A stretch of DNA of 64,000 nt from a phage: sequence record PV357172.2; one strand, 5' to 3'. The position numbers and the translations under genes were made by a program. Numbering within the stretch: position 1 is the stretch's first letter; every line of letters begins with the position of its first letter. Below the pieces are notes generated by a model, which searched no databases, was not told the origin of the DNA, and saw nothing but the letters and a program-made list of their open reading frames with translations. Shown here piece by piece: positions 12,606-16,014 of the stretch.

Positions 12606-12697
12606 GGTAGGTCAATCCAATGGCTGGCGCTGGACTCCGACTTGAAATCGGTTGATCGTAGTGATACGGTGTAAGGGTTCGATCCCCTTACCTACCT
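12606..12697 (+). tRNA. tRNA-Ser (TGA), long variable arm
   Basis: Perfect acceptor GGTAGGT/ACCTACC, anticodon loop CTTGAAA, T-arm AAGGG-TTCGATC-CCCTT, CCA. Confidence 0.7.
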
Positions 12698-14025: not shown

Positions 14026-14418
14026 ATGGAGTTTACTTGTTTAAATTGCGGAATCACAAAACCTAAAAGTAGGGGTTCCGCAGGTAAGTATTGTGGTGCT
14101 GCTTGTCAGCAGGAGTACCAGACAAAGCAAAAAGTATTAAAGTGGCTGGCAGGTGAAGAACCTGGTTATACTGGTAAAGCTGCACAATTAAAACCTTTTG
14201 TTAGGAAGTGGCTGTGGGATACTCGTGGTACTGCTTGTGAAGTATGTGGTTGGGATGGGAAACATCCAATTGACGGAGCAGTTTTAACTGAGGTAGATCA
14301 TATAGATGGAGATGCAACTAACTGTTCTCCAGAAAATCTAAAGATTCTCTGCCCTAACTGTCACTCTATGACACCTACGCATAGGGCCAGAAATAGAGTT
14401 TCAACAAGACAACGATAG
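14026..14418 (+). CDS. HNH endonuclease (zinc-binding)
   Basis: VDHIDGD...NLKILCPNCH HNH motif plus N-terminal CxxC pairs; stop TAG supplies G1 of tRNA-Thr. Confidence 0.75.
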   Translation: MEFTCLNCGITKPKSRGSAGKYCGAACQQEYQTKQKVLKWLAGEEPGYTGKAAQLKPFVRKWLWDTRGTACEVCGWDGKHPIDGAVLTEVDHIDGDATNCSPENLKILCPNCHSMTPTHRARNRVSTRQR

Positions 14419-14507: not shown

Positions 14508-14537
14508 TTTGCCTTCTCTCTTATTTCTTGTTATAAT
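14508..14537 (+). promoter_or_regulatory. sigma70-like early promoter
   Basis: TTTGCC -35-like 14508-14513, TATAAT 14532-14537. Confidence 0.5.
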
Positions 14538-15017: not shown

Positions 15018-15023
15018 CCAAAC

Positions 15024-15062
15024 AGAGGATCTGGTCATTGTACCAGATCTCTGTGTTTATTA
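15024..15062 (+). terminator. rho-independent terminator closing the tRNA cluster
   Basis: AGAGGATCTGGT...ACCAGATCTCT hairpin followed by a T-rich run. Confidence 0.6.
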
Positions 15063-15203
15063 AACTGAATGGGACTATCAATCCACAAGCCGGACTACGA
15101 GCGATTATCGGGTATTCACTTAATAAACAGCCTGCCCCCCAGTTTTTATCTTGCTTCTGGGTTAACAAAAAGCTGAGCCAAATTCTAATATCAGGGAGAT
15201 CTA

Positions 15204-15572
15204 ATGAAAGCATATCAAAATCTTAAATCCGGCGTAATTAACCTTGTTCATGAAAATCAGATCATTCAGCTATACTCTAAAGACGGTGAACTTAAACAGA
15301 AAGTTCTAGTTGAAGATCTAGAAGGTATCACACCTCACTTTGACCCTGAAGCCTTTCGCATTGTAGATGTGGAAGTGGTTCCCCAAGTCGAGGGTGGTCA
15401 GCACCTAAATGTCAATGTGTTAAGCCGTGATCAGCTTTTAGATGCACAGAAACATCCTGAAAAATATCCTCAGTTGACCATCCGTGTCTCTGGCTATGCT
15501 GTTCGATTTAACGCATTGACGCGTGAACAACAGAACGACGTTATTAGTCGTACATTTACTCAGGCGATATAA
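15204..15572 (+). CDS. grcA: GrcA-like autonomous glycyl-radical cofactor
   Basis: C-terminal [12 protein letters not shown]...[20 protein letters not shown] matches the glycyl-radical motif of E. coli GrcA/YfiD and the pyruvate formate-lyase C-terminus. Confidence 0.8.
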
Positions 15573-15653
15573 TGGGGTTTGGATACGATTTCTCCCAGCT
15601 ACGCAAGGTAGTCGAGCAAACTCCGTTTATCTCCCAAGTTTTAGGAGAAATGT

Positions 15654-15968
15654 GTGGATCGAGCATTAAGACGCCATCACCGGCAACGTGTGAAGAACAA
15701 CCGCAAGAAGTATTGGACAGTCTTTCCACATGAAGAAAGCCCTAAGCGATTAGGTATTATCACTACTACTCCTTGCATCTGTTCTTGCTGGATGTGTGGG
15801 AACCCTCGCAAATATTATAAGAATAGTAAAGCAGGTATGAAAACCTCGGAGATCAGGAAAATGGGAGCAATGATTATGGGCATCTCAAATGATGAATTTG
15901 ATGGCTTTGTAGGATTCGGAGAAGGAACTAGCTCAGGCTGTTTCGAATATGAACTCCCCGATCTGTGA
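15654..15968 (+). CDS. hypothetical Cys-rich protein (104 aa)
   Basis: Track ORF with CICSCWMC cluster. Confidence 0.45.
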   Translation: MDRALRRHHRQRVKNNRKKYWTVFPHEESPKRLGIITTTPCICSCWMCGNPRKYYKNSKAGMKTSEIRKMGAMIMGISNDEFDGFVGFGEGTSSGCFEYELPDL

Positions 15969-15976
15969 TTAACAAC

Positions 15977-16014
15977 AAACCCCAGCTATGGAATAAGTAG
16001 TCTGGGGTTTTTCT
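15977..16014 (+). terminator. rho-independent terminator
   Basis: AACCCCAG...CTGGGGTT hairpin followed by TTTT. Confidence 0.6.

What the first reader, a model, noticed from the sequence alone, without database searches (positions are those of the whole stretch)
15204..15572. GrcA-like glycyl-radical 'spare part' protein
The C-terminal 60 residues are nearly identical to the glycyl-radical domain of E. coli GrcA, including the RVSGYAVRF glycine-radical motif. A phage copy could repair oxygen-damaged pyruvate formate-lyase or support anaerobic metabolism in the gut.
Basis: established knowledge. Interest (0 to 1): 0.55.

Follow-up and report, generated by a model that had tools for sequence, protein, structure and literature searches.

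The report
T5-phage GrcA-like glycyl-radical spare part
This is the ordinary, long-annotated T5-family copy of a small "spare part" protein that can replace the oxygen-broken radical-bearing tail of the host's pyruvate formate-lyase; the T4 homologue was shown to do this in 2001.

Summary
The ORF at 15204-15572 (+) is real. It encodes 122 aa with a PFL-type glycyl-radical domain at residues 62-122 (Pfam PF01228, 66 bits against a cut-off of 22). The RVSGYAVRF motif is exact, with the radical glycine at G97. The best solved-structure match is E. coli GrcA/YfiD (E 2.4e-29). "Nearly identical" overstates it: the last 60 residues match GrcA 48/60, PflB 48/60 and TdcE 51/60. About 80% is the level many bacterial domains of this type show to this query.

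The window is a T5-like phage (Tequintavirus). The gene is the ortholog of T5.056 and BF23 ORF trn2.21, sits in the early tRNA region, and occurs in about 440 T5-like records. It is under strong purifying selection (dN/dS 0.01-0.2). It is 51% identical over its full length to T4 vs.6 (Y06I), which has been shown biochemically to be activated by PFL activase and to rescue O2-cleaved PFL.

Two points are specific to the T5 lineage: an N-terminal half too diverged to pass the NCBIfam GrcA model, and no recent host donor, unlike T4 vs.6. No phage activase was found, so host PflA is presumably used. Function in T5 is untested.

The parts
15204..15572 (+). CDS of 122 aa including the stop codon; GrcA-like autonomous glycyl-radical protein, ortholog of T5.056
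   Evidence: ORF; Pfam, NCBIfam, PHROG and PDB matches; 88-99% identical orthologs in T5-like phages; T5.056 annotation; dN/dS 0.01-0.2
15204..15386 (+). N-terminal half (aa 1-61). It is diverged from cellular GrcA and predicted to be beta-rich. By analogy with YfiD residues 1-60 it is the probable recognition region for damaged PFL
   Evidence: No match to the GrcA HMM before aa 54. hhalign gives only a weak link to other phage N-termini (prob 49%, E 1.7e-4, aa 1-50), whereas those match cellular GrcA N-termini (98%, 1e-14). AF2 pLDDT is 84-91 for aa 1-40. dN/dS is 0.02-0.45 in informative pairs, mostly 0.1-0.3. Role of the YfiD N-terminus: PMC8683613
15387..15569 (+). Glycyl-radical domain (aa 62-122), PFL C-terminal type
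   Evidence: PF01228 covers aa 62-103 at 66 bits. Aligns to PflB 698-758 and GrcA 53-126. Foldseek top hit is 6owr, the YfiD NMR structure (E 5.5e-5, TM 0.76 on the target). dN/dS is 0-0.17 in pairs with enough synonymous change, mostly 0-0.05, with dS up to 0.68
15492..15494 (+). Codon GGC for G97, the predicted radical-bearing glycine (equivalent to G102 of GrcA and G734 of PflB)
   Evidence: Position of RVSGYAV; invariant in 25-36-sequence alignments
15194..15199 (+). Shine-Dalgarno sequence GGGAGA, 4 nt upstream of the ATG
   Evidence: Sequence. The same site is annotated as a ribosome-binding site in the BF23 and phage 5 records and is conserved in T5 and S131
14509..14537 (+). Sigma-70 promoter-like site (TTGCCT-17-TATAAT with TG). 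It is the positional equivalent of T5 promoter P11 and the likely start of the unit T5.058-like ORF / tRNA-Ile / tRNA-Met / grcA-like / T5.055-like
   Evidence: Promoter scan; T5 annotation of P11; alignment with T5
15162..15191 (+). Weak promoter-like site (TTAACA-18-TAATAT, 9 of 12) just upstream of the gene; uncertain
   Evidence: consensus match only
15022..15054 (+). Strong hairpin at the start of a ~170-nt insert between tRNA-Met and the gene. It may be a terminator or processing site. T5 lacks it
   Evidence: fold at -17.5 kcal/mol, z -4.8; alignment with T5 and S131
15977..16013 (+). Rho-independent terminator-like hairpin plus T-run after the T5.055 ortholog; end of the transcription unit
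   Evidence: Fold at -17.5 kcal/mol, z -4.0; a terminator is annotated at the equivalent place in T5

Best explanation
The gene encodes the T5-family member of the phage GrcA/Y06I spare-part proteins. Shown here: it is a conserved, purifying-selected 122-aa protein whose C-terminal 61 residues form a PFL-type glycyl-radical domain with the radical glycine (G97) and all invariant flanking residues. It sits in the tRNA-rich region, in a unit that runs from a P11-like promoter to a terminator. Inferred from the E. coli YfiD and T4 Y06I biochemistry: when oxygen cleaves activated host pyruvate formate-lyase at G734, the phage protein docks onto the cleaved enzyme, with its N-terminal half helping recognition. 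The host activase PflA (radical SAM) then installs a glycyl radical on G97. The complex resumes converting pyruvate and CoA to acetyl-CoA and formate, which keeps fermentative ATP supply running in an anaerobic or microaerobic infected cell. From my knowledge of T5 biology, not from a tool result: the tRNA region is expressed in the early class, and T5 degrades host DNA early, so the cell cannot make new PflB or GrcA. A phage-encoded spare part would fill that gap. The phage carries no activase of its own.
For: Domain and motif. Full-length membership of phrog_1209. 51% full-length identity to T4 vs.6, which RefSeq annotates as GrcA. T4 Y06I and YfiD are validated rescuers of O2-cleaved PFL, activated by PFL-AE (PMC8683613 citing Wagner 2001). 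The YfiD N-terminus is needed for cPFL binding and activation. The gene is conserved in about 439 phage records at >=80% identity. dN/dS is 0.01-0.2 overall and mostly ~0-0.05 in the radical domain despite dS up to 0.68. The structure model's C-domain matches the YfiD NMR structure and GRE radical domains. No PflA or NrdG homolog was found in the window or in the complete genome of close relative S131. RBS, promoter and terminator context.
Against: No experiment exists on any T5-family copy; I found no paper linking T5 phages to glycyl radicals or formate-lyase in the library. The N-terminal half does not match cellular GrcA, and the NCBIfam GrcA equivalog cut-off is missed (118 against 170 bits), so recognition of damaged PFL could differ. 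The tail after the radical glycine is closest to TdcE (24/26), not PflB (21/26). A strong hairpin lies between the upstream tRNAs and the gene in this particular phage, so its expression level is uncertain.
Confidence: 0.8

Rival explanations
1. It works by the same spare-part mechanism, but the preferred client is the host 2-ketobutyrate/pyruvate formate-lyase TdcE, or both TdcE and PflB, rather than PflB alone.
For: The last 60 residues are 51/60 identical to E. coli TdcE, against 48/60 to PflB and GrcA. The segment that oxygen cleavage removes (G to the C-terminus) matches TdcE 24/26, PflB 21/26 and GrcA 19/26.
Against: The differences are few and conservative. Before the glycine the sequence is closest to GrcA (29/34 against 27/34), so the domain is a mosaic. 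About 77-88% identity is found to many bacterial GrcA, GrcA3 and PFL domains, so the small excess towards TdcE may carry no meaning. E. coli GrcA itself is only 48/60 to PflB yet rescues it.
Confidence: 0.1
2. It acts as a decoy or inhibitor. The protein binds host PflA or PFL without restoring activity, which either shuts down host fermentation or frees radical-SAM and flavodoxin capacity for the phage's own glycyl-radical enzyme (the NrdD-like anaerobic ribonucleotide reductase of T5-like phages).
For: T5-like phage S131 encodes an NrdD-like enzyme but no activase, so the phage depends on host radical-SAM machinery. The N-terminal half has diverged from cellular GrcA.
Against: Every residue invariant across functional GrcA and PFL radical domains is kept, and the domain evolves at dN/dS ~0-0.05 in most pairs. 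That is the pattern expected for a catalytically competent radical loop rather than a mere binder. The T4 homolog restores activity. There is no similarity to the NrdD radical domain (E 3.4).
Confidence: 0.05
3. It is a non-functional remnant of a captured host pflB, tdcE or grcA 3' end that is carried passively in the dispensable tRNA region.
For: Only the last ~60 codons resemble host genes. Several GenBank records label it merely as pyruvate formate-lyase or hypothetical.
Against: The ORF is intact and of constant length (122 aa) in all 9 orthologs examined and matches full-length in hundreds of other records. It shows strong purifying selection in both halves. The RBS is conserved. DNA identity to host genes is only 72-74%, with third positions about 50% identical, so it is an old lineage rather than a recent fragment. 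The same full-length architecture is shared with T4-like and jumbo phages.
Confidence: 0.03

Closest known systems
Bacteriophage T4 Y06I (gene vs.6), autonomous glycyl radical cofactor
   Same: Same size (120 against 122 aa). Same start (MKAYQ). Same two-part architecture. 51% identity over the full length. Same PHROG family. It is a standalone phage gene with no adjacent activase. Y06I is activated by PFL-AE and reconstitutes O2-fragmented PFL (Wagner 2001).
   Different: The radical domain of the T4-type vs.6 protein (RB51) is 60/60 identical in protein and 176/180 in DNA to E. coli grcA, which indicates a recent exchange with the host. The T5-type domain is 48/60 in protein and 72% in DNA, an old independent lineage. 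The T5-type N-terminal half is much more diverged. The genomic neighbourhoods are unrelated: the tRNA region here, the regB-denV region in T4. The downstream small ORFs are not homologous.
E. coli GrcA (YfiD), PDB 6owr; NCBIfam TIGR04365
   Same: Small standalone protein. The C-terminal glycyl-radical domain is 80% identical, including RVSGYAVRF. The linker [12 protein letters not shown] aligns with YREVPVEVKPEV. AlphaFold predicts a similar layout, a beta-rich N-domain, a low-confidence linker and the radical domain, for both this protein and a cellular GrcA.
   Different: Residues 1-50 show no detectable similarity. It scores 118 bits against the family cut-off of 170. It is phage-encoded and probably under an early phage promoter, rather than a host stress-induced gene (annotated as such).
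PflB / TdcE (formate C-acetyltransferases, glycyl radical enzymes)
   Same: The last ~61 residues are homologous (80-85% identical) to the C-terminal radical domain.
   Different: It lacks the ~700-residue barrel with the catalytic cysteines. It scores 84 bits against a cut-off of 994 for TIGR01255. GenBank product names such as 'pyruvate formate-lyase', '2-ketobutyrate formate-lyase', 'acetyltransferase-related protein' and 'ribonucleotide reductase subunit' for this gene are misnomers.

Membership tests
Pfam PF01228 Gly_radical domain | Score above the gathering threshold for the glycine-radical domain | tested here: met
   66.2 bits against a cut-off of 22.2, aa 62-103
Glycyl radical proteins (PFL type) | Radical glycine within the RVSGY(A/S)V fingerprint near the C-terminus | tested here: met
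   RVSGYAVRF is exact and G97 is invariant in the alignments
Autonomous glycyl radical cofactor GrcA (NCBIfam TIGR04365 equivalog) | Full-length HMM score above the curated cut-off | tested here: not met
   118.4 bits against a cut-off of 170; only aa 54-121 align. GrcA2 and GrcA3 models are also below their cut-offs (90 against 145; 116 against 158)
Spare-part proteins (YfiD/Y06I functional class) | Small (~14 kDa) standalone protein made of an N-terminal region plus a duplicated PFL C-terminal radical domain, including the strand preceding it | tested here: met
   122 aa. Aligns to PflB 698-758 and to GrcA 53-126, including the linker strand. The C-domain model matches 6owr
Spare-part proteins (YfiD/Y06I functional class) | Glycyl radical installed by PFL activating enzyme; restores activity to O2-cleaved PFL | not testable with these tools
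   Needs EPR and enzyme assays. Shown only for YfiD and T4 Y06I
Phage GrcA-like family (phrog_1209; T4 vs.6 group) | Full-length profile match | tested here: met
   160 bits, aa 1-122 on profile positions 1-121 of 121; 51% identity to T4 vs.6
Formate C-acetyltransferase (PflB/TdcE, TIGR01255) | Full-length enzyme with the catalytic barrel; score above cut-off | tested here: not met
   84 bits against a cut-off of 994; only profile positions 683-743 of 744 match
Anaerobic ribonucleotide reductase subunit (the label in some GenBank records) | Similarity to NrdD or NrdG | tested here: not met
   No significant BLASTP match to the S131 NrdD-like protein (E 3.4). Neither E. coli NrdD nor NrdG matches this ORF by tblastn against the window

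The most novel reading that the evidence does not exclude
The T5-lineage protein may not be a simple GrcA equivalent. It has an old, independently evolving radical domain with a TdcE-like tail after the glycine. Its N-terminal half is strongly diverged yet under purifying selection. Together these could give it a different client or a different activation logic from YfiD and Y06I. For example, it might rescue TdcE or several host GREs, or be activated without prior binding to cleaved PFL. It would act alongside the phage's activase-less NrdD as part of a dedicated anaerobic-infection module.
Probability: 0.12. Interest if true: 0.45.

Novelty: already known. Interest (0 to 1): 0.15.

Why it matters
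The gene confirms that T5-like phages, like T4-like and many jumbo phages, carry a cheap repair part for the host's main fermentative enzyme. This fits infection of enteric hosts at fluctuating oxygen levels. It adds nothing new in kind. The gene has been annotated since the T5 and BF23 sequences, and the family's biochemistry was established with T4 Y06I in 2001. There is modest residual value in three points. No T5-family copy has been tested. Its biological benefit to any phage is unmeasured. Many GenBank product names for it are wrong.

Tried and rejected
1. I asked whether the downstream small ORF forms a conserved two-gene module with the GrcA-like gene in both T5 and T4. It does not: there is no similarity between the 53-aa ORF and T4-type vs.5, and they fall in different PHROGs.

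2. I looked for a phage-encoded activase. There is no PflA or NrdG homolog in the window or in the complete genome of relative S131.

3. I tested the idea that it is a spare part for the phage NrdD. The radical domains are unrelated.

4. I tested for recent capture from an E. coli host gene. This is rejected for the T5 lineage, where DNA identity is 72-74% and third positions are near saturation. It is true for the T4-type vs.6 gene of RB51.

5. I searched for a closer cellular donor of the C-terminal domain in the 5.8-billion-protein set. Among the 120 hits listed, nothing outside the T5 group exceeded about 88% identity.

6. I asked whether a confident AlphaFold beta-domain for the N-terminus distinguishes it from YfiD, whose N-terminus is disordered by NMR. 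It does not: a cellular GrcA control gives an equally confident beta-rich N-domain. Foldseek found no significant match for the N-domain.

7. Literature searches for work on the T5 copy found none.

8. An Rfam scan of 12-18 kb found only tRNAs.

Full report
**Observation**

The window holds an ATG-to-TAA ORF at exactly 15204-15572 on the + strand, encoding 122 aa. A GGGAGA Shine-Dalgarno sequence lies 4 nt upstream. The translation ends ...[40 protein letters not shown].

- Pfam finds a glycine-radical domain (PF01228, 66.2 bits, cut-off 22.2).
- The best solved-structure relative by sequence is E. coli GrcA/YfiD (6owr, E 2.4e-29), followed by PflB (E 1.7e-26).
- The radical glycine is G97, equivalent to GrcA G102.

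So the feature is real and far beyond chance. The one overstatement is "nearly identical". I took the E. coli K-12 genes from RefSeq. The last 60 residues are 48/60 identical to GrcA, 48/60 to PflB and 51/60 to TdcE. After the glycine the tail matches TdcE 24/26, PflB 21/26 and GrcA 19/26. Before the glycine it is closest to GrcA, 29/34. A search with the domain alone shows that 77-88% identity is typical across bacterial GrcA, GrcA3 and PFL proteins. An identity of 80% therefore says "PFL-type radical domain", not "copy of E. coli GrcA".

**What the window is**

The region carries 19 tRNA genes. It is 90-97% identical in DNA to Tequintavirus genomes (Demerecviridae) such as Salmonella phage S131, NBEco002 and T5 relatives.

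The ORF is the ortholog of three annotated genes:
- T5.056, [quoted passage not shown];
- BF23 and phage 5 ORF trn2.21, "putative formate acetyltransferase";
- "gcrA putative autonomous glycyl radical cofactor GrcA" in T5_ev212.

A tblastn search of 50,697 phage records finds 439 records at >=80% identity, all full length in the rows listed. About 1,100 more records match at lower identity (1,005 of them below 60%, the listed ones around 52%), mostly T4-like phages, plus jumbo and Vibrio or Aeromonas phages. The closest protein is 99.2% identical, in Salmonella phage SA001, annotated "pyruvate formate-lyase".

**Is it a working gene?**

Nine T5-family orthologs all keep 122 codons. Pairwise Nei-Gojobori dN/dS is 0.01-0.2 for the whole gene. 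In pairs with enough synonymous change it is mostly 0-0.05 in the radical domain (up to 0.17), with dS up to 0.68. In the N-terminal half it is 0.02-0.45, mostly 0.1-0.3. Both halves are therefore under purifying selection.

Alignment with T5 and the T5 annotation place the gene in one unit:
1. a P11-like promoter (14509-14537, TTGCCT-17-TATAAT);
2. the T5.058-like ORF;
3. tRNA-Ile, then tRNA-Met;
4. this gene;
5. the T5.055-like ORF;
6. a terminator hairpin (15977-16013; -17.5 kcal/mol, z -4.0).

In this phage a ~170-nt insert separates tRNA-Met from the gene, and T5 lacks it. The insert starts with a strong hairpin (15022-15054, z -4.8). A weak promoter-like site (15162-15191) lies between that hairpin and the gene. 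Expression has not been measured.

**Relation to known proteins**

PHROG 1209 matches the whole protein (160 bits). T4 vs.6, annotated in RefSeq as GrcA, is 51% identical over the full length (E 7e-38).

From my own knowledge, vs.6 is the protein called Y06I. The position between regB and denV agrees with this. According to Andorfer et al. 2021 (PMC8683613), citing Wagner et al. 2001, YfiD and T4 Y06I are the only validated spare-part proteins. PFL-AE installs the radical on them, and the activated protein complexes with O2-cleaved PFL to restore activity. The same paper shows that the YfiD N-terminal 60 residues are needed for binding cleaved PFL and for efficient activation, but not for catalysis.

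**What is particular to the T5 lineage**

1. The N-terminal half. NCBIfam's GrcA equivalog model aligns only aa 54-121 and scores 118 against a cut-off of 170. Profile-profile comparison of N-terminal regions, excluding the linker, gives two results. T4-like and jumbo-phage N-termini are clearly homologous to cellular GrcA N-termini (98%, E 1e-14). The T5-type N-terminus links only weakly to other phage N-termini (49%, E 1.7e-4) and not at all to cellular ones. With the linker included, the T5-to-other-phage link is 95.9%, E 5.7e-9. It is thus a diverged member of the same architecture, not a new fusion.

2. AlphaFold predictions. AlphaFold gives a confident beta-rich N-domain (pLDDT 84-91 for aa 1-40), a low-confidence linker at EGGQHLNV, and the radical domain. 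A cellular GrcA control gives the same picture. The prediction therefore does not separate the two, and it says nothing about the disorder reported by NMR for free YfiD. The C-domain model hits 6owr and GRE radical domains. The N-domain has no significant structural match.

3. Origin. The last 180 nt of the T4-type vs.6 gene of RB51 are 176/180 identical to E. coli grcA, with 57/60 third positions identical. Its GC content is 0.49 there against 0.33 in its N-part. That indicates a recent exchange with the host. The T5-type gene is 72-74% identical to grcA, pflB and tdcE, with about half of third positions identical. No closer cellular donor appeared among the listed hits from the large protein database. 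It is an old phage lineage.

4. No activase. There is no PflA or NrdG homolog in the window or in the full genome of S131. S131 does encode an NrdD-like glycyl-radical ribonucleotide reductase, 54% identical to E. coli NrdD. The phage protein shows no similarity to that NrdD's radical domain.

**Mechanism (inferred)**

After oxygen cleaves activated host PflB at G734, the phage protein binds the cleaved enzyme. Host PflA abstracts the pro-S hydrogen of G97, and the hybrid enzyme resumes pyruvate cleavage.

A rationale from my knowledge of T5 biology, not from a tool result, is this. T5 destroys host DNA early, so the infected cell cannot induce grcA or resynthesise PflB, and a phage copy keeps fermentative energy supply going.

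The rivals are less likely because of the invariant radical-loop residues, the selection pattern, and the demonstrated activity of the T4 homolog. They are a TdcE-preferring variant (0.1), a decoy or inhibitor (0.05) and a dead remnant (0.03).

**Verdict**

The novelty is nil: the gene is already known and widely, if inconsistently, annotated. GenBank labels such as "pyruvate formate-lyase", "2-ketobutyrate formate-lyase", "acetyltransferase-related" and "ribonucleotide reductase subunit" are misnomers for a 122-aa radical-domain protein. The open questions are experimental: nobody appears to have tested the T5 copy, or the benefit of any phage copy during infection.

Noticed in passing
window 15021-15190: A ~170-nt insert lies between tRNA-Met and the grcA-like gene. 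T5 lacks it: there the RBS follows the tRNA directly. S131 has a different insert at the same spot, carrying a 65-aa ORF. This looks like an indel hot spot. The insert begins with a strong hairpin at 15022-15054 (-17.5 kcal/mol, z -4.8).
   Followed up: partly
window 12606-12696 (+): An Rfam tRNA-Sec-model match (37.6 bits, below the gathering score) sits right after tRNA-Ser(GGA) and was not called by ARAGORN. It is probably the second long-arm tRNA-Ser of the T5 Ser1/Ser2 pair, or a degenerate copy.
   Followed up: no
L003 4001-4360 (RB51 vs.6) compared with L002 (E. coli grcA): The last 180 nt of T4-type vs.6 are 98% identical to E. coli grcA DNA (57/60 third positions). GC content jumps from 0.33 in the N-part to 0.49 there. 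This is evidence of recent recombination between T4-like phages and the host grcA gene.
   Followed up: partly
proteins P0084, P0110, P0117 (short ENA metagenome contigs): These are 127-aa proteins with an enterobacterial GrcA N-terminus joined, exactly at [10 protein letters not shown], to a PflB-type C-terminus. They represent either real grcA/pflB gene conversion or assembly chimeras.
   Followed up: no
L009 1476-3350 (S131; region upstream of the window's start): T5-like phages encode an NrdD-like anaerobic ribonucleotide reductase (54% identical to E. coli NrdD) but no NrdG activase. Together with the GrcA-like gene, that makes two glycyl-radical proteins that depend on host activases.
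   Followed up: partly
window 14026-14418 (+): A 130-aa HNH endonuclease ORF (several HNH PHROGs, best E 1.7e-17) is inserted in the tRNA cluster just before tRNA-Thr. The S131 annotation lists no CDS between the orf93 equivalent and tRNA-Thr.
   Followed up: no
window 15572-15733 and 15654-15968 (+): A 53-aa ORF (phrog_31464) starts at the TAATG overlap with the grcA-like stop codon. It overlaps the 104-aa T5.055 ortholog (phrog_4499) out of frame by 80 nt. Some relatives annotate the 53-aa ORF (T5_ev212, smaug) but T5 does not. Which of the two is translated is unclear.
   Followed up: no
L012 301-666 (Salmonella phage 5, AJ604531): The ortholog reads RVSQSGSLP where all others read REVKVEVAP or RIVDVEVVP (aa 52-60). 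This looks like a compensated double frameshift or a sequencing error in an old record.
   Followed up: no
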